Of a stretch of 64,000 bases of DNA, positions 30,181 to 48,294 are shown piece by piece; position 1 is the first letter of the stretch, and every line of letters starts with the position of its first letter. The stretch covers positions 1,859 to 65,858 of the forward strand of contig JAUSFE010000050.1 of NCBI GenBank assembly GCA_030649945.1, given 5' to 3'. The notes beneath the pieces were generated by a model. It worked only from the letters and a program-made list of their open reading frames with translations, ran no database searches and was not told the origin of the DNA. The translations under genes and the position numbers were made by a program. The DNA comes from Dehalococcoidia bacterium. GTDB taxonomy: Bacteria; Chloroflexota; Dehalococcoidia; SM23-28-2; RBG-16-64-32.

Positions 30181-30268
30181 TTATCTACGATGGGGTCAGG
30201 ATGTGACCATGGTGGCAGAGAGCAGACAGCCGACCGCACCGAAGACAACGCCTCGCCCTGGGTTTCGA

Positions 30269-30697: not shown

Positions 30698-30777
30698 CAG
30701 GGGGCCGTCGTGGATTCCGCAGCTGGTGATACCTGTGGCCCCACTCCCGCGCTAGCATCCAACTTTCTCGCAAGACT

Positions 30778-30820
30778 TTTACATTACGTTAACCGGCGTT
30801 AACACGCGCTTAAAGCCACG
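30778..30820. promoter_or_regulatory. second copy of the candidate PHO box (TTTACATTACGTTAACCGGCGTTAACACGCGCTTAAAG)
   Basis: Direct repeat of the 30138-30180 motif, upstream of a long leader and the histidine phosphatase gene. Confidence 0.45.
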
Positions 30821-31121
30821 TGGCTAACATCAGTCCTAGAGGGAAGGGATTGATAACAAACGCAAGGAGCCAGCGGCAGTCCAGGACAGAACCGTTCAAG
30901 CAGGCTTCTGGCGCGCCACACAGCAGACTCGCGGGGGGAGAGCACCCCCAAGCTCTCCCGATGAGACCCGGTAGCTCCGGCGGTGGTGCGAGCCACCGCC
31001 GGAGCTCGTTCCGGTCAGCCACAGCAGGGGAAAGTGATGGCACGCGCCTGGCGAAGCTGATCCGCCGGCGCATCCTGATCTTATTGCCGGCGCAGCATGT
31101 GCGCACAGAAGGAGAGCTGCA

Positions 31122-31853
31122 ATGACCCGCACAGCCGTGGCCACGCGTGGTCCAGCCACAAGCGACGCCGTGTACTCCGTGGCGGTAGACGAAGCGCTGG
31201 AGCACTTATTCGGCCTGGCGGACACAGCTACCACGGAGCTGGTGCTGGTCCGTCACGCAGAGCCAGACCACAACCGCGCGCTGAGGGCTGGGGGCGCGTT
31301 CGATCCAGCGCTGAGCGAACGCGGGCGCTGCCAGGCGATGCGGCTGGCGATGCGCCTGCGGCCCGCTGACATAGCCGCCATCTACACTTCCACCGCCCGC
31401 GCCGCAGTGGAGACCGCGGCGGTGGTAGCCGCGGCGAAAGACATGCCCATGATCCGGGCGCCGCAGCTACGAGACCCGGCTGTGCATGGCTGCGCTGCAA
31501 GAGCAAAGGAGAGCGACCCTCAGAGGCTGGTGGCGGAGGCGACCGTGCGGTTCCTCAACCGGCCGCGCTGGGACGCCCTGCCGGGGCTGGAGCGCTCCAA
31601 GCAGTTCCGGCACCGCGTGGTGCAGGCACTGGAAGGCGTAGTCTCGCATCACTCCGGGAAGACGGTGGTTGTGGTCACGCACCAGGGCGTGATCAACGCG
31701 TATCTGAGCATGATTCTGGACATCCCGCGCGACGTGTTCTTCCTGCCTGACTACACTTCACTTTCGGTCGTACGGATCCTGTCGGACCGGTACGGAGTGC
31801 GGCATTTGAATGATACGGCCCACCTGCTCCCCGCAGGCAACCCGCGCGGATGA
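31122..31853 (+). CDS. histidine phosphatase (phosphoglycerate mutase superfamily; PhoE-like broad-specificity phosphatase candidate)
   Basis: RHG-type catalytic motif LVLVRHAEPDHN; C-terminal H in VVVTHQGVI; 243 aa. Confidence 0.75.
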   Translation: MTRTAVATRGPATSDAVYSVAVDEALEHLFGLADTATTELVLVRHAEPDHNRALRAGGAFDPALSERGRCQAMRLAMRLRPADIAAIYTSTARAAVETAAVVAAAKDMPMIRAPQLRDPAVHGCAARAKESDPQRLVAEATVRFLNRPRWDALPGLERSKQFRHRVVQALEGVVSHHSGKTVVVVTHQGVINAYLSMILDIPRDVFFLPDYTSLSVVRILSDRYGVRHLNDTAHLLPAGNPRG

Positions 31854-31879
31854 GAGCCGTGAGGTAAGGAGAGACAAAG

Positions 31880-32128
31880 TTGGATGAGGTCCTGGCTGCC
31901 ACGGACGAAGCCAGTCTGCGAGCGCAATACCTGATCTGCCAGCGGCTGGTGAGAGCGTGCCGCCACGCGATGTACGAAATAGCGCTGGATGAGGACGACG
32001 ACCAGAACGTCAGACGACTCGCCATCCAGGCGATGAAGGGCATTCTGGACGACTGGGCAGAAGCGCAGAAGAGCCTGCGGCGGGAGATGGAATCGCGGCA
32101 GATTTTACGGTCCGTTAACGCTGGTTAA
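31880..32128 (+). CDS. hypothetical small protein (82 aa)
   Basis: ORF with moderate GC located between the phosphatase gene and the third PHO-box copy; no recognisable motif. Confidence 0.35.
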   Translation: MDEVLAATDEASLRAQYLICQRLVRACRHAMYEIALDEDDDQNVRRLAIQAMKGILDDWAEAQKSLRREMESRQILRSVNAG

Positions 32129-32140
32129 CACAACGCTGAG
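32103..32140. promoter_or_regulatory. third copy of the candidate PHO box (TTTACGGTCCGTTAACGCTGGTTAACACAACGC) immediately upstream of pstS
   Basis: GTTAAC direct repeats with 11-bp phasing, 40-80 bp upstream of the pstS ATG at 32182. Confidence 0.45.
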
Positions 32141-32181
32141 GTTCGCGGGCTAAGATGCGGTTCAAGAAAGGGGGCAGATTG

Positions 32182-33180
32182 ATGAAATTCTTGCGCCGGA
32201 TGCGTTCGGCGATTTCTGAGTCCAGGTTGGTCCTGCTGCTGGTTGTGGCCGTCGCAGCCATGGCTGTGTTCGTGGCGTGCGGGGATGACGACAGCACCAG
32301 CGCTACCAAGACGCCGGGCGGCGCGCCCACGCAGACACCGGGGCCGCAACTCTCCGGAAGCATCAACGGCGACGGATCAAGCACCGTCTTTCCGATCTCC
32401 GAGGCCGTGGCCGAGGAGTTCCGCAAGGTGCAGCCCGGCGTGGACGTGGTGGTGGGCATCGCCGGCACCGGCGGCGGCTTCAAGAAGATCTGCAACGGCG
32501 AGACGGACTTCAACGACGCCTCACGGCCGGTGAAGGACGCGGAGACGCAGGCGTGCGCGGCCAAGAACATCGAACTCGTCGAGTTCCAGGTCGCGTTCGA
32601 CGGGCTGTCCGTCCTCGTCAACCCGGCCAACGACTTCGCCGAGTGCCTGACGGTAGCCGAACTGAAGAGCATCTGGCAGCCGGGCAGCACGATCAAGAAC
32701 TGGAAGGACGTGCGGGCGGGATTCCCGGACATGCCGCTCACCCTCTACGGACCGGACACGGACTCCGGGACCTTCGACTACTTCACGGAGGTGATCAACG
32801 GCGAGGCGAAGGCGAGCCGCCCGGACTACACGGCCAGCGCCGACGACAACACGCTGGTGCAGGGCATCGCCGGCGACGATAATGCCCTGGGATACTTCGG
32901 GTTCGCCTACTACGAGGAGAACCAGGATAAGCTAAAGCTGTTGGGCGTGGATGCGGGCAGCGGCTGCGTGCAGCCCTCCCGCGAGACGATCCTGGACGAG
33001 TCCTACGCCCCGCTATCCCGGCCGCTTTTCGTCTACGTGCGCGGGGATGCGCTGGAGCGTCCCGAAGTGAAGGCGTTCATGCGCTTTTACCTGGAGAACG
33101 GCAAGCAGCTGGTGGGCGAGGTGGGGTACGTGGAAGCGCCGGACTCCGTCTATCAGCAGGAGTTGGCGAAACTGAAATAG
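32182..33180 (+). CDS. pstS: phosphate ABC transporter substrate-binding lipoprotein PstS
   Basis: Lipobox VFVACG. PBP fold motifs [38 protein letters not shown]. Confidence 0.9.
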
Positions 33181-33259
33181 GCAAACTACTTCGAGCCTCT
33201 GTCTTGGCCAAGCATCCCTGAGCGCCCGGGGATGCTTGGCCCTTTTCCGGAGAAAAGGG

Positions 33260-34216
33260 GTGACCAAGGTGGCACTGGGCGAGACCGAACTGGCGCGGCG
33301 CTCCCGGGTGAGGCCGCGGGGGCCCCTGGAGGCGCGTCTGCGGCGAGGCCGCGAGGCTGTGATCCATGGGGTGCTCTTCCTCTGCGCCTTCGTGTCCATC
33401 CTGACGACGGCCGGCATCATCGCCACGCTGCTGGAGGAGACGATCGGCTTCTTTGGCCAGGTCTCCATCTGGGATTACCTGACGGGGACCAGGTGGACGC
33501 CCCTTTTCAGCCCCGCCAGCTTCGGCATCCTGCCGCTCCTGGCCGGGACGCTGCTGGTGGCGGCGTTCGCGGCGCTATTCGCGGTGCCCATCGGCCTGCT
33601 CACCGCCGTCTTCCTGAGCGAATACGCCCCTTCCTGGCTGCGCAGCATCGCCAAGCCGCTCCTGGAAATGCTGGCCGGCATCCCCACCGTGGTGCTGGGC
33701 TTCTTTGCCCTCACGTTCATCTCGCCGGAGATCATCCGTCCGTTCTCGAATGCCAGCGTCTTCAACGCGCTGGCGGCGGCGATCGCCGTTGGGATCATGA
33801 TCATCCCCCTGATCTCATCGCTGAGCGAGGACGCGATGAGCGCGGTCCCCCAGAGCCTGCGAGAGGGCGCCTACGCCCTGGGGGCGACGAAGTACGAGGT
33901 CGCGCGGCGGGTCGTCATCCCGGCCGCCCTTTCGGGCATCGTCGCCTCGTTTATCCTGGCGATCTCGCGCGCGTTAGGGGAGACGATGATCGTCGTGCTG
34001 GCGGCAGGCGGCACGCCGAACCTGACGTGGAACCCGCTGGAGGCCGTGCAAACGATGACGGCCTACATCGTGCAGGTGAGCCTGGGCGATACACCGCAGG
34101 GCAGCCTGGAGTTCCAGACGATCTTCGCGGTGGGGATGACGCTGTTCGTGATGACGCTGGCGCTGAACGTGGTCAGTCAGTACCTGCTGCAGAAGTTCCG
34201 GGAGGTGTACGAATGA
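33260..34216 (+). CDS. pstC: phosphate ABC transporter permease PstC
   Basis: Six TM helices; EAA-like loop; start approximate (GTG after RBS GGAGAAAAGGGG; the ORF-track ATG at 33236 is also possible). Confidence 0.8.
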
Positions 34217-35094
34217 CCGTCTCGCAGGCGCATTTCCGCAGGCGCCTGCTCCTGCGCAGGGCTGCCGGCATCGCCTTTGCGGCGCTCTGCGTGGCCGCCA
34301 CCGCGGCGGCCATCGCTGCCCTGGGCGTGCTGCTGGTGCAGGTCGCCGCGAAGGGCATCGACAGGGTCGGCTGGGACTTCCTCAACGCCTTCCCCTCCCG
34401 GAAGCCGGAGGAGGCGGGGATCAAGGCGGCGCTCTGGGGGACGATCTGGCTGATGGGGCTGACGGCGGCGTTCGCCGTGCCGCTGGGGCTGGGCGCCGCG
34501 ATCTACCTTGAGGAGTACGCGCCCCGCAACTGGCTGACGCGGGTGATCCAGGTCAACATCGCCAACCTGGCCGGCGTGCCTTCGATCGTCTACGGGTTGC
34601 TGGGGCTGGCGCTCTTCGTGCGGGCGCTGGAGCTGGAGCGCAGCGTCCTGGCCGGGTCGCTGACGATGGCGCTGCTCGTGTTGCCGATCGTCATCATCGC
34701 CTCCCAGGAGGCGCTGCGGGCCGTGCCGAACTCCATCCGCGAGGCGGGGTGGGCGCTGGGCGCCACGCGGTCGCAGGTGGTGTTCAGACAGGTGGTGCCG
34801 GCGGCGCTGCCCGGGATCATGACGGGCATCATCCTGGCGCTTTCGCGCGCGATCGGGGAGACGGCGCCGCTGATCATGATCGGCGCGCTGCTGTTCGTCC
34901 CGTTCACGCCCAGCGGCCCCATGGACAGGTTCACGGTCCTTCCCATCCAGATCTTCAACTGGGCGTCCCGGCCGCAGAAGGAGTTCCAGGTGGACGCGGC
35001 GGCCGGGATCATCGTGCTGTTGGCCGTGCTGCTGGCGATGAACTCGGTCGCTATCGTCCTGCGCAACCGTTTCCAGGCGGGCGGCCGGAGGTAG
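34213..35094 (+). CDS. pstA: phosphate ABC transporter permease PstA
   Basis: ATG overlaps the pstC stop (ATGA); permease with motif [27 protein letters not shown]. Confidence 0.85.
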
Positions 35095-35097
35095 ATA

Positions 35098-35985
35098 ATG
35101 ATCCGCGAGCGTCTAGAGGACATTCTGCGAGAGAGAGCGAGGCTACAGACGGGCGATCCTCAAATGGAAGCGGCGGAAGCGGCGCCCCCAGCAGCGGCGG
35201 CGCCCCCGGCGGCTGAAGATCCGGGCGCCGCCCTCCGCACCGAGGGGCTGGCGGTGTACTACGGTCACTTCCAGGCGCTGCGTGACGTGTCGCTGCAGGT
35301 GCCCGGCAACCGGGTGACGGCGATCATCGGCGCCTCCGGTTGCGGCAAGAGCACGCTGCTGCGCTGCTTCAACCGCATGAACGATGCGATCCCGGGCTTC
35401 CGCCTCCAGGGCGCCGTGCTGTTCAAGGGCCAGGACATCTACGAACGCGGCGTGGACGTGGTGGACGTGCGCCGGCGCATCGGGATGGTGTTCCAGAAGC
35501 CGAACCCGTTCCCGAAGTCGATCTACGAGAACGTGGCGTTCGGGCCGCGCATCAACGGGTACGAGGGGCGTCTGGACGAGATAGTGGAGCGGGCGCTGCG
35601 CCACGCCGCCCTCTGGGAAGAGGTGAAGGGCAAGCTGCGGCAGGGCGCGCTGACCCTGTCAGGCGGCCAGCAGCAGCGCCTGTGCATCGCGCGGGCGCTG
35701 GCGGTGGAGCCGGAGGTGATCCTGATGGACGAGCCGTGCTCTGCGCTGGACCCGGTGGCCACGCTCAAGATCGAGGACTTGATGCGGGAGCTGGCGAAGG
35801 AGTATACGATCGTCATCGTCACGCACAATATGCAGCAGGCGGCGCGCGTCTCGGACTGGACGGCGGTGATGATGATGGCGGAGGACCGGGCGGGCGAGAT
35901 GGTAGAGTTCGCGGATACCAGGAGCATCTTCACCAACCCTCGTGACAAGCGGACGGAGGACTACATCACCGGCCGCTTCGGCTAG
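35098..35985 (+). CDS. pstB: phosphate ABC transporter ATP-binding protein PstB
   Basis: Walker [10 protein letters not shown]; signature [15 protein letters not shown]; Walker [12 protein letters not shown]. Confidence 0.9.
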
Positions 35986-35996
35986 GAGACGGGCCA

Positions 35997-36662
35997 ATGA
36001 CACGCACAGCTTTCGAGCACCAGCTGGAGGAGATCCAGGAGGACATGCTGACCATGGCCGGCCTGGTGGAGCTGGCCATTGAGCGCGGCATTGAGGCGCT
36101 GAAGACCCGCAACGCGGACCTGGCGCGGCAGATCATCGCCGACGACCTGACGATCAACCGGATGCGATACGAGACGGAAGACAAGTGCCTGGAGCTGATC
36201 GCCACCCAGCAGCCGCTGGCCAGCGACCTGCGCACGATAGTCTCCGTCCTGCACATCACGGTCGATCTCGAGCGCATGGGCGACCACGCCGAGGGCATCG
36301 CCAAGATCGCCATCATGCTGGCGGACGAGGCGCCGCTCAAGCCGTACATCGATATCCCGCGCATGGCCGAGATCGGAATGCGGATGCTGATGGACAGCCT
36401 GGAGGCGTTCAAGCAGCGCGATACGGCGCTGGCGCGCGCCGTCTGCAACCGGGACGACGAGGTGGACGCGCTGTACGAGCAGGTCTACCAGAAGCTGCTT
36501 GGGTTCATGATCCAGGACCCGCAGACGATCCAGCGGGCCACGTACCTGATGTGGGTGGCGCACAACCTGGAGCGCATCGCGGACAGGGTCACGAACATCT
36601 GCGAGCGCGTGGTCTATCTGGTGGACGGGCACATCGAAGAGATGAACGTCTCGAAGTACTGA
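35997..36662 (+). CDS. phoU: phosphate signalling complex protein PhoU
   Basis: 221 aa; two PhoU repeats (DxxxD...ERxxDH pattern: LERMGDHAEGIAK, LERIADRVTNICE). Confidence 0.9.
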   Translation: MTRTAFEHQLEEIQEDMLTMAGLVELAIERGIEALKTRNADLARQIIADDLTINRMRYETEDKCLELIATQQPLASDLRTIVSVLHITVDLERMGDHAEGIAKIAIMLADEAPLKPYIDIPRMAEIGMRMLMDSLEAFKQRDTALARAVCNRDDEVDALYEQVYQKLLGFMIQDPQTIQRATYLMWVAHNLERIADRVTNICERVVYLVDGHIEEMNVSKY

Positions 36663-36875
36663 CGGCGCGCGGCAGGGAACTGGGAGTCAGGAGCTGGGAA
36701 CTAGGAGCCGCCCCGCCCGCGCACGCCGTCACGCGCAGAACGCCGTAGGGGCGCACGGCGTTCGCCCCTACGTTTGCGTTGGGCCGTCGCCTGCCGCGTA
36801 AGGCCGGGCGGTTGACAGCGAGTGGGCCGGCGGTATGCTTGTAACGCGTCCCGCTTCGGCGCATGGAGGGCCACC

Positions 36876-38243
36876 GTGGAACAACAGATCCGCTTCTGCA
36901 CAACAACTGACGGCGTGCGCATCGCCTACGGCACCGTGGGCCAGGGGCCGCCGCTGATCCGCGTGCTGGGCTGGTTCACTCACCTGGAGTTCGAGTGGGA
37001 GAACCCCCGCTGGCGCCGTCTTTACGAAGGCATGGCGGACCGCTTCACCTACATCCGCTACGACGGAAGGGGGATGGGTCTTTCCGACAGGGACGTGACC
37101 GACTTCTCGTCGGATGCCTTCGTGCATGATCTGGAAGCGGTAGTCGATGCCACGGGTTTTGAGAGGGTCGCGCTCTACGGCATCTCTCAGGGAGGTCCTA
37201 CGGCCATCCTCTACGCTCTGCGCCACCCGGAGCGCGTCAGCCACCTCATAATCTACGGCTCCGCCGTTCGGTCTACCTGGCCTGAAGAGCAACAGGAGAT
37301 GATGCTGTCCCTAATCCGCCAAGGCTGGGGCAGCGACGTCCCTGCTCACCGTCAGTTCTTCACTGGCCTGTTCATGCCTGACGGTGATATGGAGGCGATT
37401 CAGGCGTTCAACGAGATGCAGCGGGTGTCGGCCTCGGCCGAGAACGTTGCGGCGATGCTCACGCCGCCGCCGGAACTCCCTCCATTCGATCTTAGAGAAT
37501 TGCTGCCTCAAGTCGCTGTGCCAACCCTCGTGATCCACCGGCGCGGCGACGCCATCGTCCCCTTCGAGGCAGGACGCGAGATCGCCGCCGGCATTCCCGG
37601 CGCCCGTTTCCTCCCTCTGGAGGGTAGGAACCACGCCGCCCTTGCCGACGCGGATCAGCCGGTCATGGAGATTATGGCCAAGGCCATCGCCGACTTCGTG
37701 GGCGAAGGCCAGCAGGCCGTCACCGCGGACACGCCCTCCGGGATGGTCACCATCCTCTTCACGGACATGGAGGGCTCTACCACCCTCACTCAGCGGCTGG
37801 GGGACGCCAGGGCGCAGGAGGTGCTGCGCGCCCACAACACCATCGTCCGCGAGGCGCTGAAGGCGCACGGGGGCAGCGAAATCAAGCACACCGGCGACGG
37901 CGTCATGGCCTCGTTCCCAACGGCCTCCGGCGCGCTGGAGTGCGCCATCGCCGTGCAGCTGGCCTTCGCCGCGCACAACGAGTCGGCCGAGACGCCCGTC
38001 CGCGTGCGCATCGGCCTGAACGCGGGCGAGCCGGTGGCGGAGGAAGAGGACCTGTTCGGCACGGCCGTGCAGCTAGCCGCCCGTGTATGCGCCCAGGCTG
38101 AGCCGGGCCGGATCCTGGTGCCGGACGGCGTGCGTCACCTGGTGGCCGGCAAGGGGTTCCTGTTCTCGGACCAGGGCGACGTCGTCCTGCGGGGCTTCGA
38201 GGACCCCGTGCGGCTCTACGAGGTGCGCTGGGAGGAGGCCTAG
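36876..38243 (+). CDS. alpha/beta-hydrolase domain fused to class III adenylyl/guanylyl cyclase catalytic domain (LipJ/Rv1900c-like), copy A
   Basis: GTG start with RBS GGAGGG. Hydrolase nucleophile elbow GISQGG. CHD motifs FTDMEGST (metal Asp), EIKHTGDG (Lys + Asp), GLNAGEP (Asn), and R in GRILV. Confidence 0.8.
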   Translation: MEQQIRFCTTTDGVRIAYGTVGQGPPLIRVLGWFTHLEFEWENPRWRRLYEGMADRFTYIRYDGRGMGLSDRDVTDFSSDAFVHDLEAVVDATGFERVALYGISQGGPTAILYALRHPERVSHLIIYGSAVRSTWPEEQQEMMLSLIRQGWGSDVPAHRQFFTGLFMPDGDMEAIQAFNEMQRVSASAENVAAMLTPPPELPPFDLRELLPQVAVPTLVIHRRGDAIVPFEAGREIAAGIPGARFLPLEGRNHAALADADQPVMEIMAKAIADFVGEGQQAVTADTPSGMVTILFTDMEGSTTLTQRLGDARAQEVLRAHNTIVREALKAHGGSEIKHTGDGVMASFPTASGALECAIAVQLAFAAHNESAETPVRVRIGLNAGEPVAEEEDLFGTAVQLAARVCAQAEPGRILVPDGVRHLVAGKGFLFSDQGDVVLRGFEDPVRLYEVRWEEA

Positions 38244-38245
38244 CC

Positions 38246-39592
38246 ATGGAACAACAGATCCGCTTCTGCACAACCTCCGACGGGGTGCGCATCGCCTACG
38301 CCACTGCAGGCCAGGGCCCGCCGCTGGTGCTGATCACCGCTTGGGTGGGTCACCTTCAGTTCGAATGGAGCCACGCCGAGACCAAGGCGTTCTACGAAGG
38401 CTTGGCGAACGGGCGGCTACTCGTTCGCTTTGACAAGCGTGGCACCGGCCTAAGCGACAGGCAGGCAGAAGACTTCTCCGTAGAGGCGCGCCTGCGCGAT
38501 CTGGAGGCGGTGGTCGATGCCCTGCGCCTGAAACGCTTTGCCCTCATGGGCTTTTCCGAGAGCGGGCCCACGGCCATAATCTACGCAGCCCGCCATCCTG
38601 AGCGGGTGACGAACCTCGTCATCTATGGCTCCTACCACCGCTGGCCGTACCCTGCAGGGGCCGCCAATCCCGTCATGGCCCTGATCCGCTCGCAGTGGGG
38701 CATGGGATCAGCGGCGCTCTCTGCCATCTTCGTTCCCTCCGGCGATCCCGCCCAGGTAGCGTGGTGGACGGAGTTGCAGCGGGTCTCGGCCTCGCCAGAG
38801 AGTGCTGCCTCTATCTTCGAAGTGAACACCGGGCTTGATGTGACCTCCGTTCTCAGTGACATCCGGGCCCCGGCCCTCGTCATTCACCGGAACAACGATA
38901 CTGTCTGCCCCTTCGATGTCGCTCGCGAGATGGCTGCCCTCATCCCGGCTGCCCGTTTCGAGCCCCTGGAAGGCGATATCCATCCCCCCATGTTCGGCGA
39001 CACTGCCGCCGTCCTCAACGCCGTAGATTCCCTGCTGCCCAGCGGCGCGCGCCGCAGGCAGGCCGTCACCGCGGGCACGCCCTCCGGCCTCGTCACCATT
39101 CTCTACACCGACATGGAGGGCTCTACCCCCCTGACCCAGCGACTGGGCGACGCCAAAGCGCAGGAGGTGCTGCGCGCGCACAACACCATCGTCCGCGAGG
39201 CCCTCAAGGCGCACGGCGGGTCCGAGATCAAGCACACCGGCGACGGCGTCATGGCCTCCTTCCCAACGGCCTCCGGCGCGCTGGAGTGCGCCATCGCCGT
39301 GCAGCAGGGCTTCGCCGCGCACAACGAGTCGGCTGAGACGCCCGTCCGCGTGCGCATCGGCCTGAACGCGGGCGAGCCGGTGGCGGAGGAAGAGGACCTG
39401 TTCGGCACGGCCGTGCAGCTGGCGGCGCGCGTCTGCGCCAGGGCGGAGCCGGGGCAGGTCCTGGCCTCGAACGTGGTGCGTGAGCTGGCCGCCGGCAAGG
39501 GGTTCCTGTTCTCCGACCAGGGCGACGTGGTCCTGCGCGGCTTCGAGGATCCCGTGCGGCTGTACGAGGTGCGCTGGCAAGCGGCGGGCTGA
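38246..39592 (+). CDS. alpha/beta-hydrolase + class III cyclase fusion, copy B
   Basis: Starts 2 nt after the copy A stop. Hydrolase elbow GFSESG. The CHD region is about 95% identical to copy A (LYTDMEGSTPLTQRLGDAKAQEVLRAHNTIVREALKAHGGSEIKHTGDGVMASF...). Confidence 0.8.
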   Translation: MEQQIRFCTTSDGVRIAYATAGQGPPLVLITAWVGHLQFEWSHAETKAFYEGLANGRLLVRFDKRGTGLSDRQAEDFSVEARLRDLEAVVDALRLKRFALMGFSESGPTAIIYAARHPERVTNLVIYGSYHRWPYPAGAANPVMALIRSQWGMGSAALSAIFVPSGDPAQVAWWTELQRVSASPESAASIFEVNTGLDVTSVLSDIRAPALVIHRNNDTVCPFDVAREMAALIPAARFEPLEGDIHPPMFGDTAAVLNAVDSLLPSGARRRQAVTAGTPSGLVTILYTDMEGSTPLTQRLGDAKAQEVLRAHNTIVREALKAHGGSEIKHTGDGVMASFPTASGALECAIAVQQGFAAHNESAETPVRVRIGLNAGEPVAEEEDLFGTAVQLAARVCARAEPGQVLASNVVRELAAGKGFLFSDQGDVVLRGFEDPVRLYEVRWQAAG

Positions 39593-41028
39593 TGGACGCG
39601 CCGCCCATCCAGTACGCGAAGACCGCCGACGGCGTCAGCATCGCCTTCTGGACGCTCGGCGAAGGCCCCCCGCTCGTGATCCTGCCCAACCTGACCGCCA
39701 GTCACGTGCAGGTGGAGTGGGAGTGGGACGTCCGCCGGATCGCCTACCAGCGGCTGGCGCAGCACGCCACGGTCATCCGCTACGATTGTCGCGGCCTGGG
39801 GCTGTCTCAGCGCGATTGCCCCGACTTCTCCGCCGAGGCAGGGGGCCTCGACCTGGAGGCCGTCGTTGACCGCCTCGGCCTGGAGCGCTTCGCCATCTAC
39901 GGCTCCGACTCCACGGGCGACGTAACTTTCGCCTTCCCCGCCGGCCATCCGGAGCGGGTGAGTCACTTGATCATCGGCGTGCCGCATATCCAGCGCGGCT
40001 TCCGCCGCCGCCTGGCCGCCGTTCAGCCGCTCATTGATCAGGACTGGGAGCTGTTCATCGAAATCTTTCCGCGGCTCGCGGGGGGTTGGGACAGCCCCCA
40101 GGCGGCCCAGGTGCCGGCTGTGATGATGGGTACGCACACGCCCTCTAGCTTCCGCTCGGCTCTCGACGCGATGGCCGCCTTCTCGCCGGAGCCCTACCTG
40201 GCGGCTATTCAGGCGCCGTCGTTGATCATGCACCCGCTGCAGAGCGGCCGGGACAACCGGACAGCGCGAGTGCTGGCGGGCGCTATCGCCGGCGCTCACA
40301 TGGTAGGAATCCCGGGCTGGCCGCTCGCCTCAACACTCAACGAGACGGCCGTTGCGGCCATCCTGGACTTCATCAATACCGCGCCGGCCGCGCCGGGCCA
40401 CGCGATCCCCGCGCCGCAGATAGACATCAGCGCCGTCCGCACCATCGTCTTCACCGATGTCGAAGGCTCCACGGCGCTCAATGAGCGGCTCGGCGACGAG
40501 GGCGCCCGGGAGGTCCTGCGCGAGCACGAGCGACTGACGCGCGAGGCGCTCGCGTCGCACGGCGGCTCCGAGGTGAAGGCGATGGGCGACGGCTTCATGG
40601 CCTGGTTCCCATCGGCGACGCGCGCTGTGGAGTGCGCCATCGCCTTACAGCAAGCGTTTGACGAACGTAATCGGAAGGTAGGGGCGCAGCAACATGAGCC
40701 AAGTAGGAAGGATATCGAATCGTCTTCCGATGTTGCTGCGCCCCTACGCACCGCCTCCCGGCCACGCCTCGACACGCCCGAACCGATCCGCGTCCGTATC
40801 GGCATCAACGCCGGGGAGCCAATTGCCGAAGGAGACGACCTCTTCGGCGCATCGGTGATCACGAGCGCCCGCATCACCGCGCAGGCGAAGGGCGGCCAGA
40901 TCCTGGCTTCGGACGTGGTGCGCCAGCTCCTCGCCGGCAAGGGGTTCCTCTTCTCCGACCAGGGCGACGTCGTCCTGCGCGGCTTCGAGGACCCCGTGCG
41001 CCTGTACGAGGTGCGCTGGCGCCAGTAG
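39592..41028 (+). CDS. alpha/beta-hydrolase + class III cyclase fusion, copy C (carries an in-frame REP-element insertion in the CHD)
   Basis: ATG overlaps the copy B stop (TGATG). CHD motifs FTDVEGST, EVKAMGDGFMAWF, GINAGEP. The hydrolase GxSxG motif is degenerate (YGSDSTG). Extra 30 aa (KVGAQQHEPSRKDIESSSDVAAPLRTASRPRLDTPEP) relative to A/B/D. Confidence 0.8.
   Translation: MDAPPIQYAKTADGVSIAFWTLGEGPPLVILPNLTASHVQVEWEWDVRRIAYQRLAQHATVIRYDCRGLGLSQRDCPDFSAEAGGLDLEAVVDRLGLERFAIYGSDSTGDVTFAFPAGHPERVSHLIIGVPHIQRGFRRRLAAVQPLIDQDWELFIEIFPRLAGGWDSPQAAQVPAVMMGTHTPSSFRSALDAMAAFSPEPYLAAIQAPSLIMHPLQSGRDNRTARVLAGAIAGAHMVGIPGWPLASTLNETAVAAILDFINTAPAAPGHAIPAPQIDISAVRTIVFTDVEGSTALNERLGDEGAREVLREHERLTREALASHGGSEVKAMGDGFMAWFPSATRAVECAIALQQAFDERNRKVGAQQHEPSRKDIESSSDVAAPLRTASRPRLDTPEPIRVRIGINAGEPIAEGDDLFGASVITSARITAQAKGGQILASDVVRQLLAGKGFLFSDQGDVVLRGFEDPVRLYEVRWRQ
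40683..40752. mobile_element. REP-like palindromic element (GTAGGGGCGCAGCA...TGCTGCGCCCCTAC, long loop) inserted in-frame inside cyclase copy C
   Basis: Same palindrome arms as the intergenic REP copies at 19843, 22568, 43255 etc. Replaces the short ESAETP linker present in copies A and B. Confidence 0.7.
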
Positions 41029-41131
41029 GGGCGAACCGCCGTTCGCCCCTACGTTTGCCTTGCGTCTTCGCCTGCCTCCACCGCACCCGGCCGGTAGCCG
41101 CGCGGCATTTGACACGGTTGCGACCAGGAGT

Positions 41132-42535
41132 ATGATTCACGGTGCGGAGTGGCGTGAAAACGAAGTGAACCCATCGATCCAGTACGTGCACACGGCTGAT
41201 GGGGTCGCCATCGCCTACTGGGCCCTGAACGAGGGGCTGCCGCTGGTCTATGCGCCCATTATCCCCTTCAGCCACATTCAGCTGGAGTGGCAGATCCCGC
41301 AGTGCCGCCGCTGGTACGAGCAGCTGGCCGGCCACCGGCAGTTGATCCGCTATGACGCACGCGGCTGCGGCCTCTCGGAGCGCGACGTCTCGGACTTCTC
41401 GCTGGACGGGCTCGTCCTGGACCTGGAAGCGGTGGCAGACGGCTTGCACCTGGACAACTTCGCGCTGTTCGCCTCGTCTGACGCCTCGATGATGGCGATC
41501 GCTTACGCGGCGCGGCACCCGGATCGCGTGTCGCACCTGATCCTCTGGAGCGCGTGGGCGCGGCGAGAGGACGTCTCGCGGTCCGCGCAGGCGCGCTCGC
41601 TGCGCGCCGTCCTGGAGCAGGACTGGACCATCTACACGGAGACCGTGGCGCGCGTGCTGATGGGCTGGGCTGCGGAAGGGCCGGCGCGCGAGTTCGCGGC
41701 CTTTTACCGGGCGTGCACCAGCGCGGACGCCGTTCGCGCGCTGGCGGCGTCCGCCTACGAGACCGACGTGTCGGCTCTACTCCCCCAGATCAGGTGCCCG
41801 ACCCTGGTGGTGCACCGCAGCCACATCCCCGGCGTGGGCCTGCCCGTTGTGCGCGACCTGGCGGCCCGCATCCCCAACGCCCGCCTGGCGCTCCTGGAGG
41901 GGTTGTCTCCGCTGCCCTTCTTGGAAGACACGCAAGCGGTTGTACGGGCCATTCAGGTGTTCTTGGGGGAAGAGCCGGAAGACGATGCGGCCGCGCCGGA
42001 TGTCGCGGGCCGGGCGATCGCCAGCGCACCCGTCACGATCCTCTTCACGGACATGCAGAGCTCCACCGCCATGACGCAGCGCCTGGGGGACGCGCGGGCC
42101 CAGGACGTGCTGCACGTGCACAACAGCATCGTGCGGGCCGCGCTGAAGCGGCTGGACGGGTCGGAGGTCAAGCACACGGGGGACGGCATCATGGCCTCGT
42201 TCGCTTCGGCGACGAGAGGGCTGGAGTGCGCCGTCGCCATCCAGCGGGCGCTGGCCACCCACAACGCCTCTGCGCCGGACGGCGCGATCCACGTGCGTAT
42301 CGGCCTGAACGCCGGCGAGCCCGTGGCGGAGGAGTCGGACCTCTTCGGAACGGCAGTCCAGATCGCCGCGCGCGTCTGCGAGCATGCGGAGCCGGACCAG
42401 ATCCTGGTGTCGAACGTCGTGCGCGAGCTGGCGTCCGGGAAGGGGTTCCTGTTCTCGGACCGCGGCGACAGTGTGTTGCGCGGCTTCGAGGACCCGGTGC
42501 GGCTGTTCGAGGTGAGGTGGTCGCCCGGCGACTAA
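41132..42535 (+). CDS. alpha/beta-hydrolase + class III cyclase fusion, copy D (most divergent)
   Basis: Start approximate (internal ATG giving MIHGAEWRENEV...; the ORF-track TTG at 41060 lies within a REP hairpin). CHD motifs FTDMQSST, EVKHTGDGIMASF, GLNAGEP. Hydrolase nucleophile motif lost (FASSDAS). Confidence 0.75.
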   Translation: MIHGAEWRENEVNPSIQYVHTADGVAIAYWALNEGLPLVYAPIIPFSHIQLEWQIPQCRRWYEQLAGHRQLIRYDARGCGLSERDVSDFSLDGLVLDLEAVADGLHLDNFALFASSDASMMAIAYAARHPDRVSHLILWSAWARREDVSRSAQARSLRAVLEQDWTIYTETVARVLMGWAAEGPAREFAAFYRACTSADAVRALAASAYETDVSALLPQIRCPTLVVHRSHIPGVGLPVVRDLAARIPNARLALLEGLSPLPFLEDTQAVVRAIQVFLGEEPEDDAAAPDVAGRAIASAPVTILFTDMQSSTAMTQRLGDARAQDVLHVHNSIVRAALKRLDGSEVKHTGDGIMASFASATRGLECAVAIQRALATHNASAPDGAIHVRIGLNAGEPVAEESDLFGTAVQIAARVCEHAEPDQILVSNVVRELASGKGFLFSDRGDSVLRGFEDPVRLFEVRWSPGD

Positions 42536-42617
42536 CCATTCCGCGCAAGGAACCCGCACCCGGCGCGCCGGAGGGAAGCGCGCGCACCAACGCTTGTAGC
42601 GAAAGGGAGGGAAAGCG

Positions 42618-43067
42618 ATGCCGCCTTACAGTACCCTGAGGACGTTCATCACGTCCCTGCAGACGGGCAGAACGAACATAACGGATTCGCTGGAGCGGCT
42701 GATGAGCGATCACGGCGCGCTCAAGGGAAACATCCACTTCCAGGACCTGCGGCAGGGCGGCGCAGCAGACTCTCCGATGCCCGTGTGGGCAAGGGCAGCC
42801 CTGCGCGCTAGCGGCATGTCCAAGGACGAGGTGGACCACATTGACCGCTGGCCGGACCCGCAGAAGGAGGCGGTGCGCGCGGCGCTGGTGGCGGCCGTGG
42901 ATGGGACCCGCGCGATGCACCTCCTCTGGGAGCTTTACGACGGCAACGACGCCGCGACGGAGGTCCGCGACCCCGACGGCTCGGGCGGCATCACGATCAT
43001 CTTCCGCAGCCCGCGGGCGGGCGTGCAGCTGACCCCGAGCATCGGCTGGGTGCACGTGGAGGTCTGA
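42618..43067 (+). CDS. hypothetical protein (149 aa) downstream of the cyclase array
   Basis: Strong RBS GGGAGGGAAAGCG before the ATG; no recognisable domain. Followed by three REP hairpins (43180-43300). Confidence 0.55.
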   Translation: MPPYSTLRTFITSLQTGRTNITDSLERLMSDHGALKGNIHFQDLRQGGAADSPMPVWARAALRASGMSKDEVDHIDRWPDPQKEAVRAALVAAVDGTRAMHLLWELYDGNDAATEVRDPDGSGGITIIFRSPRAGVQLTPSIGWVHVEV

Positions 43068-43301
43068 GCGCAGCTCCGGCGTCGCCCCCCACCTCCGCCC
43101 CGCTGGAAGCCTGAAGGCATCCGCTACGTTCGCCGGCGGCAACGCGACCGCCCCGCCGGCGCGCGGCCGTCACGCCCGGAAACGCCGTAGGGGCGAACGG
43201 CGTTCGCCCAGAAACGCCGGACGGCCAAACGCGGTTCGCCCACACAAACGCCGTAGGGGCGCAGCATGCTGCGCCCCTACGTTCGTGTCGCGAGTCTCGC
43301 G

Positions 43302-44930
<1,629 letters not shown>

Positions 44931-45852: not shown

Positions 45853-46124
45853 GCGCAAGAGACAGGGTCATGGGGGCGGGAGGCAGGCCTGCCTGGCCGG
45901 CAGGCAGGCGCTAACCGGTGGCGAGCAGGACTATCGCCGCCCGCGCGTTGCCCGGGACCGCCCCACGCCACCCCGTAGGGAGGCACCCTTCGGCAGGCTC
46001 AGGGCAGGCTCTGAAGGTACCTCCCTACGGGAATCTGGCGGACTCAGCTCGCGCTGCGCGTTCCGCTTCCTCACCCCGGCGCGGCGCCGCCAGCGGGGGG
46101 CCGGCTGCCGCCTGCCAGCCCCCG

Positions 46125-47279
46125 GCGCTCTGCGAGCGCGACCTGGCCCGGCTCTGGGAGGGGCAGCGCTTCCCGCCGGAGGCCCTGCGCACGCGCGGCG
46201 GCGAGCGGCTGCGGGTGATCTACCGGGGGCGCGCCGGCAGCGGGCCGGGGCCGGACTTCAGAGACGCGGTCATCGCCACGCCGCAAGGGCTCTTGCACGG
46301 GGACGTGGAGCTGCACGTGCGCACGTCTGACTTCCGCCGCCACGGCCACGGGCGGGACCCCGGATACGACGGGGTGGCGCTGCACCTGGTGTTCTGGCAC
46401 GACGAGGCCGAGGATACGCTCCTGGCCAGCGGGCGCAGGGTACCGGTGGTGGGGCTGGCGGACTGGCTGGCGGAGCGCACGCGGGAGATCCAGGGCTGGC
46501 TGTCACGCCCGGCGCAGTGGCAGGAGCCCTGCCGGAGCGCCGTGGAGCGCCTGGGAGCGGACGCGGTGGGGGCGGCCCTGGACGCGCTGGGGGAGCGGCG
46601 CTTCCAGCAGCTGCGGGACGGCTGGCGGGTCCGCCTCAGGCGGAGCGGCGACGGCGAGGAGCTGCTGTGGGCGGGGCTGCTGGAGGGGCTGGGCTACGGC
46701 GGCCAGAGGGAACTCTGGCGGCTGCTGGGCGGCAGGCTGGCCTGGGCGCAGCTGCGGCCGGAGATCATGGCGCAGGAGCGGCGCGAGCGCCTGGGGGCGG
46801 CCCGCCGCCTGCTGTGCACGGCCGCGGCAGGCCTGCCGTGCCGCGTCCGCAGCGCGGGCGTGCGGCCCGGCAACCGGGTGGAGCTGCGGCTGGAGGCGGC
46901 GGCGCACCTGGCGGTGCGCTTCGCGCCGGGGGGACTGGCGAGCGCCCTGCTGGCGCCGCTGGCCGGGCCGCCCGCCGGGGCCCAGCGCGAGCTGGCGCGG
47001 GCCCTGACCGTGCACGGACTGATTGGGCCGGCGCGGGCACTGGAGCTGCTGGCGAACGCGGTCCTGCCCCTGGCCGCCGAACTGGGCGGCGCCGCCGCCG
47101 AGGCGACGGCGCGGGCGATCTACGCCCGCCTGCCGCTGCCGGCGCGCTACGGGTCGCTGCGCCACCTGCACCGGGCTGCCGCCGCCGTGCCCGTGAACAT
47201 GCGCCGCCAGCAGGGGATGCTCTACCTGCTCAAGCACTACTGCACGCAGGGTGGCTGCGGCAAGTGCCCGCTGTCGTAG
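46125..47279 (+). CDS. DUF2851 family protein
   Basis: ERDLARLWEGQRF...GPDFRDAVIATPQGLLHGDVELHVRTSDFRRHGH... matches the DUF2851 N-terminal pattern. True start uncertain (probably non-ATG near 46125); the ORF-track start at 45918 runs through R3/R5 repeat copies. Confidence 0.55.
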   Translation, partial: ALCERDLARLWEGQRFPPEALRTRGGERLRVIYRGRAGSGPGPDFRDAVIATPQGLLHGDVELHVRTSDFRRHGHGRDPGYDGVALHLVFWHDEAEDTLLASGRRVPVVGLADWLAERTREIQGWLSRPAQWQEPCRSAVERLGADAVGAALDALGERRFQQLRDGWRVRLRRSGDGEELLWAGLLEGLGYGGQRELWRLLGGRLAWAQLRPEIMAQERRERLGAARRLLCTAAAGLPCRVRSAGVRPGNRVELRLEAAAHLAVRFAPGGLASALLAPLAGPPAGAQRELARALTVHGLIGPARALELLANAVLPLAAELGGAAAEATARAIYARLPLPARYGSLRHLHRAAAAVPVNMRRQQGMLYLLKHYCTQGGCGKCPLS

Positions 47280-47487: not shown

Positions 47488-48192
47488 CTAACCGCCCAAC
47501 TGGACGGCCGCGCCGGGCGCCGGACACCCCGCCGCCTGGCTGACGGGCAGGTCTACCAGGTCTCGGGCGGTCTTCTGGGCGTCGCCGATCGTGACGCCGT
47601 TCTGGCAGTCCAGGTCGCCCCAGAGGCGGGACGTGCCGTCCACCGTCACTGCCGCCCCGGGCGCCGGGCAGCCAGGGCCCTGGGTGATGGGGATGTCTAC
47701 CAGGTCGCGGGCGATCTTCTGGGCGTCGCCGATGGTGATGCCGCTCTGGCAGTCGAAATCGCCCCAGAGGCGGCCGGCGGGCGTCGCCGTAGGTCCGGCC
47801 GTGGGGCTCGGCGCCGTCGTTGGGCTGGGGCTCGGCCCAGCGGGGAAGTCCGCCGCATCGCCGGGCCAGGTGTGGGCGTTTATCTCGGCGATGTTGGTGG
47901 CGCCGTCGCCGTCAGAGTCCAGGTTCTCCACCGCTGTCAACGCCGGATCGATACCGAGACCGATGTGGCCCTTGACGGCATCGCCATAAGTGTTCCAGTC
48001 GCCCGTGTCACCGGAGACATGGCAGGCGTCGCAACTGTTTAGCTTGGTACCGGTGAGGTTGTACTTGTTGACGAAAGCGGTCCTGTAGCTGCCCAAGCCC
48101 AAGACGGAGGATCCCGTCAGCAACGCCGCCGTGACTACGACTCCCGCCACCACCAGCAAGACAGCGAGACGACCTCGGTTCGTGGTCATATC
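47488..48192 (-). CDS. secreted protein with one CxxCH motif and three dockerin/EF-hand-like Ca-binding repeats
   Basis: Signal/TM MTTNRGRLAVLLVVAGVVVTAALL. CDACH. DSDGDGATNIAEI. Two repeats of GD(F/L)DCQ.G(I/V)TIGDAQK.ARDLVD. Confidence 0.6.
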   Translation of the reverse strand, partial: DMTTNRGRLAVLLVVAGVVVTAALLTGSSVLGLGSYRTAFVNKYNLTGTKLNSCDACHVSGDTGDWNTYGDAVKGHIGLGIDPALTAVENLDSDGDGATNIAEINAHTWPGDAADFPAGPSPSPTTAPSPTAGPTATPAGRLWGDFDCQSGITIGDAQKIARDLVDIPITQGPGCPAPGAAVTVDGTSRLWGDLDCQNGVTIGDAQKTARDLVDLPVSQAAGCPAPGAAVQLGG

Positions 48193-48294
48193 CTTAGCCC
48201 TCCTTACGGGGCCAATGTTAAGGGAGGACTCGGGCATGACACACATATCTTTGGGTAGGTTCCAGTCACGGGCGACGGACGCCTCTATCCAGCC

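What the first reader, a model, noticed from the sequence alone, without database searches (positions are those of the whole stretch)
36747..43300. Tandem array of four paralogous alpha/beta-hydrolase + class III adenylyl-cyclase fusion genes, bracketed by REP hairpins, followed by an orphan hypothetical gene
Four consecutive genes share the LipJ/Rv1900c-like architecture, an N-terminal alpha/beta-hydrolase fold fused to a C-terminal CHD cyclase domain.
- A, B and C are packed with 2-nt spacing or a 1-nt overlap. D sits behind a REP hairpin.
- All four retain the full cyclase catalytic set: two metal Asp, substrate Lys/Asp, and transition-state Asn/Arg.
- The hydrolase nucleophile elbow is intact in A (GISQG) and B (GFSESG), degenerate in C and lost in D.

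This suggests serial duplication followed by sub-functionalisation of the sensor/hydrolase domain. REP elements sit before A, between C and D, and as a triple cluster after the downstream 149-aa hypothetical gene. The block is thus delimited like a recombination-generated cassette.
Basis: partly seen in the sequence, partly recalled or inferred. Interest (0 to 1): 0.7.

Follow-up and report, generated by a model that had tools for sequence, protein, structure and literature searches.

The report
Four hydrolase-cyclase genes, expanded family
Four neighbouring genes each fuse a hydrolase-like sensor domain to a cAMP-making cyclase domain; they are real but are one sample of a gene family hugely expanded in Dehalococcoidia, and one copy carries a genomic repeat translated in frame inside its cyclase domain.

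Summary
Four co-directional genes (A 36876-38243, B 38246-39592, C 39592-41028, D 41165-42535) each encode an alpha/beta-hydrolase domain fused to a class III cyclase domain. GTAG-type REP hairpins flank them.

Three details are wrong:
- The transition-state Asn is not retained. It is Gln in A, B and D, and Ile in C.
- D keeps the nucleophile Ser but has lost the Asp and His of the triad.
- The "orphan" 149-aa gene belongs to a conserved family found next to such cyclase genes.

This is not recent serial duplication. A, B and C each have closer orthologues in other genomes (76-86% identity) than paralogues in the array (30-50% in the hydrolase domain). The family has thousands of members in Dehalococcoidia/Chloroflexota metagenome-assembled genomes (MAGs). 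Arrays of 2-7 copies are common, and about 40% of hydrolase domains have a degenerate triad.

The cyclase domains of A and B were homogenised by gene conversion. REPs are genome-wide 3'-end elements, not cassette borders.

The unexpected part is that the 32-aa insertion in C is a REP translated in frame. The same cyclase loop carries such palindromes in roughly 12-19% of family members.

The parts
36745..36771 (.). GTAG-type REP hairpin downstream of phoU and upstream of gene A. The REP plus about 35 nt of 3' flank is about 85% identical to the element upstream of D.
   Evidence: MFE -20.3 kcal/mol, z -2.7
36812..36839 (+). Sigma-70-like promoter match (TTGACA-16-TATGCT) in front of A. Putative promoter of the A-B-C unit.
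   Evidence: 2 sites found against 0.4 expected. A consensus match only.
36876..38243 (+). Gene A, 455 aa (GTG start, identical to NCBI protein P0054). Alpha/beta-hydrolase with an intact Ser-Asp-His triad (elbow GISQG) plus a class III cyclase domain. Gln occupies the Asn position.
38246..39592 (+). Gene B, 448 aa (identical to NCBI protein P0001, 'adenylate/guanylate cyclase domain-containing protein', MAG Dehalococcoidia). Triad intact (elbow GFSES). Cyclase domain with Gln at the Asn position.
37881..38074 (+). Tract of A that is 98% identical (4 mismatches in 194 nt) to B 39227-39420. Inferred gene-conversion tract, centred on the loop codons 37977-37997.
39592..41028 (+). Gene C, 478 aa. 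Hydrolase fold kept but the triad is degenerate (Asp / gap / Leu). Cyclase domain with Ile at the Asn position. Member of a conserved 'C-type' subfamily.
40678..40747 (+). REP palindrome inside gene C (18-bp arms, 34-nt loop), read in frame as VGA...APL. It accounts for most of the 32-aa insertion between helix 342-362 and strand 401-408 of the cyclase domain.
   Evidence: GC3 0.59 against 0.86 for the gene; MFE -43.3, z -5.9
41025..41052 (.). REP hairpin between C and D. The stop codon TAG of C lies within its GTAG. Scored as terminator-like.
41109..41136 (+). Sigma-70-like promoter match (TTGACA-16-TATGAT, 11 of 12 positions) in front of D. Putative separate transcription unit for D plus the 149-aa gene.
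   Evidence: A consensus match only.
41165..42535 (+). Gene D, 456 aa from GTG 41165. This start agrees with the L084 orthologue; the longest ORF begins at 41060. The hydrolase domain has Ser but no Asp or His (ASSDA / Ile / Pro). Cyclase domain with Gln at the Asn position.
   Evidence: omega: hydrolase domain 0.19, cyclase domain 0.17
42618..43067 (+). 149-aa gene of a conserved uncharacterised family with a strong Shine-Dalgarno sequence. Found directly downstream of hydrolase-cyclase genes in every context recovered with DNA.
43187..43280 (.). Cluster of three REP units (truncated, degenerate, perfect) in the convergent gap before the 3' end of groEL (43302-44930, - strand).
   Evidence: An equivalent REP is present in L084.

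Best explanation
WHAT IT IS
The block is one locus of a large lineage-specific expansion of LipJ-like signalling enzymes in a Dehalococcoidia (Chloroflexota) genome. Each protein has a variable alpha/beta-hydrolase input domain and a strongly conserved class III cyclase output domain.

HOW IT MOST LIKELY WORKS
- The cyclase domain should act as a homodimeric adenylyl cyclase. This is inferred from the Lys/Asp substrate pair, both metal Asp and the Arg. Gln or Ile replaces the canonical Asn, as His does in active Rv1900c and Ala in active Ma1120.
- A and B probably couple ester hydrolysis or ligand binding to cyclase output.
- C and D have catalytically dead hydrolase domains. D's is shown to be under purifying selection, and C-type copies persist as full-length orthologues. 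They most likely serve as ligand-binding or regulatory modules.
- A, B and C look translationally coupled and share one promoter-like site. D and a conserved 149-aa partner gene form a second unit behind a REP terminator-like hairpin.

HOW IT AROSE
- The array was assembled from anciently diverged paralogues at a conserved site between the M16 peptidase gene and groEL.
- It was then reshaped by gene conversion between the A and B cyclase domains.
- A GTAG REP now sits in frame in a surface loop of C's cyclase domain.

SHOWN: domain content, residues, orthology pattern, synteny, mosaic identity, REP positions.
INFERRED: enzymatic activity, the regulatory role of the hydrolase domains, operon structure.
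For: - Domains and full-length LipJ-model match.
- Closest solved cyclase domains are Ma1120 and Rv1900c. The Ma1120 KDA>EGY mutant fixes which residues are the substrate Lys and Asp.
- Family-wide conservation of D, K, D, D, R at 98% or more, with Gln 67% / Ile 17% / Asn 12% at the Asn position.
- Triad intact in 135 of 243 family members.
- More than 6,700 homologues at E<=1e-10, and 326 loci, nearly all in Dehalococcoidia/Chloroflexota MAGs.
- Arrays of 2-7 copies in 27 of about 82 loci.
- Closer orthologues elsewhere than within the array.
- Synteny with L001 (M16 peptidase, two copies, groEL/ES, TsaD).
- Purifying selection on D's triad-less hydrolase domain (omega 0.19).
- The cap region is the least conserved part of the hydrolase domain.
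- Promoter- and terminator-like sites.
- AlphaFold model of C: pLDDT 85.8, two well-folded domains matching esterases and Ma1120 (target-normalised TM-score 0.86-0.90).
- Rv1900c has His in place of Asn and is cited as showing that the Asn is not required for adenylyl cyclase activity: PMC4886424.
Against: - No enzymatic data exist for any member of this clade.
- The Asn is replaced in all four. Ile in C cannot hydrogen-bond, so C-type copies might be weak or inactive.
- Promoter and terminator calls are consensus matches only.
- No cNMP-binding effector was seen among the roughly 38 window ORFs scanned against Pfam.
- The source is a MAG contig, so copy order rests on a single assembly. Arrays do also occur in complete-chromosome MAGs (L004, L080).
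Confidence: 0.7

Rival explanations
1. First reader's model. The four genes arose by recent serial tandem duplication in this genome. The hydrolase domain then sub-functionalised, within a REP-bounded recombination cassette.
For: - The genes are adjacent, co-oriented and share one architecture.
- The A and B cyclase domains are 90% identical.
- REP plus flank upstream of A and of D are about 85% identical.
Against: - The hydrolase domains are 30-50% identical within the array but 76-86% identical to proteins from other genomes.
- Third codon positions in the A/B hydrolase cores are saturated.
- REPs of this type are spread through the window at many gene ends and inside IleRS.
Confidence: 0.08
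2. The co-expressed paralogues form hetero-dimers or hetero-oligomers, in the manner of the mammalian C1/C2 pseudo-heterodimer. Dead-hydrolase subunits (C, D) would regulate live ones (A, B).
For: - The tight coupling of A, B and C.
- The near-invariant C-terminal and interface sequence across all four.
- 10 of 27 arrays mix triad-intact and degenerate copies.
Against: - There is no complementary loss of catalytic residues. Every copy keeps both metal Asp, Lys, Asp and Arg, so homodimers suffice.
- 16 of 27 arrays are all-degenerate and many family genes are solitary.
- There is no consistent pairing of Ile-type with Gln-type copies.
Confidence: 0.2
3. C and/or D are decaying, non-functional copies: a broken hydrolase domain, a repeat insertion, and Ile at a catalytic position.
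For: - Degenerate triads.
- REP insertion with non-coding-like GC3 of 0.59.
- The exact C protein is absent from the protein database.
Against: - The ORFs are intact and have gene-like GC3.
- D against its orthologue gives omega 0.17-0.19 in both domains.
- C-type orthologues (60-76% identity) all keep the cyclase residues, including the Ile.
- The model of C is confidently folded.
Confidence: 0.05
4. The enzymes are not adenylyl cyclases. They make cGMP or another product, or act as non-catalytic nucleotide-binding modules.
For: - The canonical Asn is missing.
Against: - The substrate pair is Lys/Asp, not Glu/Cys-type. These are the very residues whose mutation is carried by the Ma1120 KDA>EGY triple mutant.
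Confidence: 0.1
5. Assembly artefact: the repeated cyclase domains were mis-joined in the MAG.
For: - A 194-nt tract of 98% identity between A and B could mislead a short-read assembler.
Against: - The copies are otherwise strongly diverged, with unique flanks.
- Comparable arrays occur in many independent assemblies, including chromosome-level MAGs.
- Synteny with L001 and L084 supports the order B-like, D-like, groEL.
Confidence: 0.03

Closest known systems
Rv1900c / LipJ of Mycobacterium tuberculosis (alpha/beta-hydrolase + class III cyclase; PDB 1YBT/1YBU)
   Same: - Same two-domain order.
- The NCBIfam LipJ model aligns end to end.
- The cyclase domain aligns over 158 residues at E 3e-25.
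- The canonical Asn is also replaced there, by His402.
   Different: - Scores of 169-212 bits against a cut-off of 800, so these are not LipJ equivalogs.
- These proteins keep the substrate Lys; in the alignment Rv1900c has Asn at that position (Asn342, numbering recalled from memory).
- Gln or Ile replaces the Asn rather than His.
- They occur as a family of thousands, often in arrays, about 40% with a dead hydrolase triad.
Ma1120 adenylyl cyclase of Mycobacterium avium (PDB 4WP3 and related entries)
   Same: - Best sequence match (E 3e-29) and best structural match (target-normalised TM-score 0.86-0.90) for the cyclase domain.
- Same Lys/Asp substrate pair, metal Asp residues and Arg.
- Also lacks Asn at the canonical position, where it has Ala.
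   Different: - The solved Ma1120 chains cover only the cyclase domain and a short N-terminal extension; they include no hydrolase domain.
- Only 36-38% identity.
Lineage-specific expansions of class III cyclases (for example the 16 in M. tuberculosis; PMC2447327)
   Same: - Many paralogous cyclases per genome with a conserved catalytic domain.
   Different: - Here a single architecture is amplified. Minimum counts from the fetched loci are 13 or more copies in MAG RBG_16_68_14 and 9 or more in SRP323688_co1_41.
- The copies are frequently in tandem.
GTAG-tagged REPs and in-frame intragenic REPs/RPEs (Di Nocera et al. 2013, PMC3733652; Rickettsia palindromic elements)
   Same: - Short GC-rich palindromes tagged by GTAG.
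- Mostly at gene 3' ends and in convergent gaps.
- Some are inserted in frame in intact genes, including tRNA synthetase genes.
   Different: - One loop of one paralogous domain carries such palindromes in about 12-19% of family members, always in the same reading frame, across many genomes.
- At least two or three palindrome families use the same site.
Non-catalytic or receptor-type alpha/beta-hydrolases (for example D14/KAI2)
   Same: - A hydrolase fold used as a sensor or regulatory module. This is offered as a functional analogy for C and D.
   Different: - The resemblance is only at the level of the generic fold.
- D14/KAI2 keep their triads.
- No ligand is known here.

Membership tests
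LipJ (Rv1900c) bifunctional lipase/adenylate cyclase, NCBIfam NF058673 equivalog | N-terminal alpha/beta-hydrolase domain followed by a C-terminal class III cyclase domain | tested here: met
   Pfam PF00561 plus PF00211 in all four. The LipJ model is matched over positions about 8-447 of 449 in A, B and D, and in three stretches in C.
LipJ (Rv1900c) bifunctional lipase/adenylate cyclase, NCBIfam NF058673 equivalog | Score at or above the curated equivalog cut-off (800 bits) | tested here: not met
   210.5, 211.8, 168.6 and 198.8 bits. Same architecture, but not the same orthologous group.
LipJ (Rv1900c) bifunctional lipase/adenylate cyclase, NCBIfam NF058673 equivalog | Demonstrated esterase/lipase and adenylyl cyclase activities | not testable with these tools
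   Requires enzyme assays.
Class III nucleotidyl cyclase catalytic domain (PF00211) | Pfam gathering threshold and cyclase fold | tested here: met
   56-67 bits against a cut-off of 21.9. The model of C superposes on Ma1120 with target-normalised TM-score 0.86-0.90.
Class III nucleotidyl cyclase catalytic domain (PF00211) | Two metal-binding Asp | tested here: met
   FTD and GDG Asp are present in A-D and in 242 of 243 relatives.
Class III nucleotidyl cyclase catalytic domain (PF00211) | Adenine-specifying Lys and Asp | tested here: met
   K in (I/V)K(H/A)(T/M)GDG and D in DLFG align with the Lys and Asp changed in the Ma1120 KDA>EGY mutant.
Class III nucleotidyl cyclase catalytic domain (PF00211) | Transition-state Asn | tested here: not met
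   Gln (A, B, D) or Ile (C) at the position of Rv1900c His402. Family-wide: Gln 164, Ile 42, Asn 30. Its absence is tolerated in Rv1900c (PMC4886424).
Class III nucleotidyl cyclase catalytic domain (PF00211) | Transition-state Arg | tested here: met
   Arg in A-D and in 240 of 243 relatives.
Class III nucleotidyl cyclase catalytic domain (PF00211) | Active dimer with sites at the interface | not testable with these tools
   Only monomer prediction was available.
Catalytically competent alpha/beta-hydrolase (Ser-Asp-His) | Alpha/beta-hydrolase fold | tested here: met
   PF00561 above the cut-off in all four. The model of C has hydrolase-domain pLDDT mostly above 90 and matches esterases.
Catalytically competent alpha/beta-hydrolase (Ser-Asp-His) | Nucleophile Ser, acid Asp and His at the canonical positions | tested here: inconclusive
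   Met in A (S/D/H) and B (S/D/H) by alignment to arylesterase Ser94/Asp222/His251. Not met in C (D/gap/L) or D (S/I/P).
GTAG-tagged REP elements (Di Nocera 2013) | Short GC-rich palindrome with GTAG at one end, in many copies | tested here: met
   GTAGGGGCG..CGCCCCTAC: 23 half-sites in 64 kb against 0.97 expected. Stable hairpins with z from -2.7 to -5.9.
GTAG-tagged REP elements (Di Nocera 2013) | Preferential location just downstream of ORFs and in convergent gaps | tested here: met
   After phoU, at the stop codon of C, and in the gap between the 149-aa gene and groEL.
GTAG-tagged REP elements (Di Nocera 2013) | Associated RAYT (REP-associated tyrosine transposase) in the genome | not tested
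   None was seen among the roughly 38 window ORFs scanned against Pfam. The rest of the genome is not available.
In-frame intragenic palindromic elements (RPE-like) | Element lies inside an intact ORF, in frame, in a tolerant surface region | tested here: met
   The ORF of gene C is intact. The insert lies between helix 342-362 and strand 401-408 with low pLDDT. A second case lies in IleRS at 17222-17249.

The most novel reading that the evidence does not exclude
The alpha3-beta4 loop of this cyclase domain may be a dedicated landing or retention site for GTAG REP palindromes. Breaks made at the REP, for example by a RAYT (REP-associated tyrosine transposase) cutting at GTAG, could seed gene conversion between paralogues. 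That would keep the cyclase output domain homogeneous while the hydrolase input domains diverge and the arrays are reshuffled.

Hints:
- The same site and the same reading frame recur in about 12-19% of members across many genomes.
- Two or three palindrome families use the one site.
- In other genomes' loci, perfect REPs are found almost only at that loop.
- B-type orthologues carry the REP but B does not.
- The 194-nt A/B identity tract is centred on exactly those codons.
Probability: 0.2. Interest if true: 0.7.

Novelty: new member of a known kind. Interest (0 to 1): 0.45.

Why it matters
- The genes themselves are ordinary members of a known architecture and are already annotated as cyclase-domain proteins.
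- The context adds three things. The first is evidence that a Dehalococcoidia/Chloroflexota clade has amplified one hydrolase-cyclase design to many copies per genome, with a hypervariable cap and frequent loss of hydrolase catalysis. This implies a large, unexplored cAMP sensory repertoire in uncultured soil and groundwater bacteria.
- The second is a clean natural example of concerted evolution of an output domain beside diverging input domains.
- The third is a recurrent in-frame REP at one loop of a signalling domain. This could make the question of how REPs enter and persist in coding sequence testable.
- The conserved 149-aa partner has a confidently predicted fold and no relative among solved structures. 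It is a candidate new accessory of cyclase signalling.

Tried and rejected
- Exact-sequence look-ups of B and P0001 to recover the source contig found nothing.
- The Rv1900c structure paper is not held. The survey paper's text is only partly held. I relied on PMC4886424 for the statement that His replaces Asn.
- Searches for prior descriptions of the Chloroflexi expansion found nothing relevant.
- Rfam found no RNA family in 30-50 kb.
- I looked for C1/C2-like complementary loss of catalytic residues among array members and found none.
- I looked for obligatory pairing of Ile-type with Gln-type copies, or of live with dead hydrolase copies, within arrays. There is no consistent rule.
- I tested whether the 149-aa family is generally linked to the cyclase family. 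It is absent from the other loci, about 1.3 Mb in total, so the link holds only for the small family's own contexts.
- The afdb50 fold library was unavailable.
- The Asp at C's nucleophile position was considered as a possible Asp-nucleophile hydrolase. This was rejected because C-type orthologues have unrelated residues there.

Full report
**1. The observation**

Between 36.7 and 43.3 kb there are four co-directional ORFs. Each scores above Pfam thresholds for Abhydrolase_1 and for the class III cyclase domain Guanylate_cyc. Each is matched along its whole length by NCBI's LipJ model. The scores are only 169-212 bits against a cut-off of 800, so the architecture is the same but the orthologous group is not.

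Likely coordinates:
- A: 36876-38243. GTG start, 455 aa, identical to NCBI protein P0054.
- B: 38246-39592. Identical to P0001, "adenylate/guanylate cyclase domain-containing protein", MAG Dehalococcoidia bacterium.
- C: 39592-41028.
- D: 41165-42535. This start agrees with its orthologue in L084.

The hairpins are real. GTAGGGGCG..CGCCCCTAC palindromes lie at 36745-36771 and at 41025-41052; the second contains C's stop codon. A three-unit cluster lies at about 43187-43280. They are very stable. The motif has 23 half-sites in the window against about 1 expected. They belong to the GTAG-tagged REP class described by Di Nocera et al. (PMC3733652).

**2. Catalytic residues**

Residue-level alignments to Ma1120 and Rv1900c include the Ma1120 KDA>EGY triple mutant. 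That mutant pins down which residues are the substrate Lys and Asp.

All four proteins keep both metal Asp, the Lys, the Asp and the Arg. These residues are at least 98% conserved in 243 relatives.

The canonical transition-state Asn is not kept. The position aligned with His402 of Rv1900c, which is Ala in Ma1120, is Gln in A, B and D and Ile in C. Across the family it is Gln 67%, Ile 17% and Asn 12%. PMC4886424 notes that Rv1900c has His in place of this Asn and takes that as showing the Asn is not required for adenylyl cyclase activity. Ma1120 is likewise named an adenylyl cyclase in its PDB entries.

In the hydrolase domain I aligned to arylesterase (Ser94/Asp222/His251):
- A has Ser/Asp/His.
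- B has Ser/Asp/His, with elbow GFSES.
- C has Asp/gap/Leu.
- D has Ser/Ile/Pro.

So D keeps the Ser but not the rest of the triad. C-type orthologues have unrelated residues at these positions, so C's Asp is not a conserved alternative nucleophile.

**3. What the block is**

The family is enormous and clade-restricted:
- More than 6,700 proteins reach E<=1e-10 in a capped search.
- 326 confirmed loci were found in representative genomes. The 80 kept come almost entirely from Dehalococcoidia/Chloroflexota MAGs, several per genome.
- Tandem arrays of 2-7 copies occur in 27 of about 82 loci.
- Only 135 of 243 members keep Ser-Asp-His.

The window's four genes are not each other's closest relatives:
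- A's hydrolase domain is 81-84% identical to proteins from other samples, and B's is 82-86%. A and B are about 45% identical to each other.
- C has orthologues at 60-76% identity.
- D has a 76% orthologue followed by the same small gene, a REP and groEL in L084.

The locus is syntenic with L001 on both sides: DNA polymerase III delta', Orn/DAP decarboxylase, metallo-beta-lactamase, GNATs and M16 peptidase upstream; groEL/ES and TsaD downstream. L001 has only a B-like copy and a D-like copy. It also lacks the two-component/pst/phoU block.

The array therefore grew by bringing together old paralogues, not by recent serial duplication.

**4. Concerted evolution of the output domain**

A and B are mosaics:
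- The hydrolase cores have 40-67% nucleotide identity, with saturated third positions (dS about 1.07).
- The cyclase domains are 85-100% identical (dS 0.31).
- Within the cyclase domain, 37881-38074 has 4 mismatches in 194 nt. The flanks have 16 in 120 nt and 33 in 169 nt.

Proteins that are orthologous to A or to B in the hydrolase domain are equally distant (about 80%) from both cyclase domains. Gene conversion between the neighbouring cyclase domains is the simplest reading.

**5. Selection and likely function**

D's triad-less hydrolase domain evolves under purifying selection as strong as that on its cyclase domain (omega 0.19 against 0.17, compared with L084).

The least conserved part of the hydrolase domain is the four-helix cap (alignment columns about 150-240; helices 137-196 in the model of C). 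This is where alpha/beta-hydrolases form their substrate pocket (established knowledge).

The AlphaFold model of C is confident (pLDDT 85.8). It matches esterases and Ma1120.

My best reading is a set of homodimeric adenylyl cyclases with diversified input domains. A and B have hydrolytic inputs; C and D have binding-only inputs.

No complementary loss of cyclase residues exists that would require C1/C2-type heterodimers. Heteromers among co-translated A, B and C remain possible.

Promoter-like sites precede A (36812-36839) and D (41109-41136). The REP between C and D scores as terminator-like. This suggests two transcription units: ABC, and D plus the 149-aa gene.

**6. The "orphan" gene**

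The 149-aa ORF has several marks of a real gene:
- gene-like codon composition (GC3 0.89);
- a strong Shine-Dalgarno sequence;
- omega 0.24;
- 176 homologous clusters.

In every context recovered with DNA it directly follows a hydrolase-cyclase gene: the window, L084, and L085, where it sits between two such genes. It is absent from the other cyclase loci.

**7. The unexpected feature: an in-frame REP in the cyclase domain**

The 32-aa insertion in C is largely a REP: 40678-40747, with 18-bp arms, MFE -43 kcal/mol and z -5.9. It is read in frame as VGA...APL. It lies between helix 342-362 and strand 401-408, in a low-confidence loop. Its GC3 is non-coding-like.

The same loop carries palindromes in many relatives:
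- GTAG REPs occupy it, always in the same frame, in 18 of 129 family genes with DNA and in 29 of 237 metagenomic proteins.
- Two further palindrome types occupy the same site in about 6 and 3 more, respectively.
- No VGA...APL-type insert was found elsewhere in these proteins.

Carriers are scattered over the family tree, with a Fitch minimum of 22 changes for 25 carriers. In other genomes' loci, perfect REPs occur almost only at this loop.

C-type orthologues keep the VGA and (A/S)PL arms around a hypervariable interior of 20-42 aa.

B-type orthologues carry the REP, but B itself does not. The A/B identity tract is centred (37977.5) on exactly these codons, 37977-37997.

Two explanations remain open:
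- repeated targeted insertion;
- one or a few insertions spread, and in B erased, by inter-paralogue conversion.

In-frame REPs as such are known (RPEs; PMC3733652). A second one lies in this window's IleRS gene at 17222-17249.

**8. Verdict**

The feature is real. The interpretation should be corrected to [quoted passage not shown]. The genes are new members of a known kind. The REP hot spot and the small partner protein are the parts worth following up.

Noticed in passing
window 17222-17249 (inside the IleRS gene 16556-19792, + strand): A perfect 28-nt GTAG REP (GTAGGGGCGCTTCGCGAAGCGCCCCTAC) lies in frame in isoleucyl-tRNA synthetase and reads VGALREAPL. This is the same frame as the REP in gene C.
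   Followed up: partly
window 42618-43067; L084 1644-2090; L085 403-855: The 149-aa 'orphan' belongs to a conserved family of about 150 aa (motifs WP..QKE, WEL, FRSPR). Its predicted fold is very confident and has no detectable relative among solved structures. It lies next to hydrolase-cyclase genes in all contexts recovered with DNA.
   Followed up: yes
L065 3204-3395; L020 8298-8381; L080 about 7057-8640 and 5909-7279; proteins P0100, P0103, P0285: A second palindromic repeat family (CCGCTC..CCTGAG..GGGCGAGCGG, read as LPAHPEALEGRAE) occupies the same cyclase loop in other genomes, sometimes in tandem. A third type (HAEPVEA) occurs in L033 and L066.
   Followed up: partly
window 888, 1111, 1323; 3336-3423; 6503, 6602, 25544: The half-motif CGCCCCTAC also ends several other repeated units: a roughly 220-bp tandem repeat near 0.9-1.3 kb, three roughly 40-bp tandem units at 3.3-3.4 kb, and a dispersed roughly 60-bp unit. 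This suggests several related repeat families in this genome.
   Followed up: no
window 28021-36662 compared with L001: The response regulator, PAS/HAMP histidine kinase and pstCAB/phoU block lies between the M16 peptidase gene and the cyclase array. It is absent from the otherwise syntenic locus L001.
   Followed up: partly
REP-less family genes, loop codons (for example A 37977-37997): The REP-less consensus at the hot spot (AAC GAG TCG GCG GAG GAG CCG AT, read as NESAEEP) itself contains a 5-bp hairpin (TCGGC/GCCGA). REP-bearing genes look like replacements of this segment rather than pure insertions.
   Followed up: no
window 46071-46400, 47488-48246, 49386-53636, 55642-56784: Several well-formed ORFs downstream of groES have no Pfam match at E<=1e-8.
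   Followed up: no
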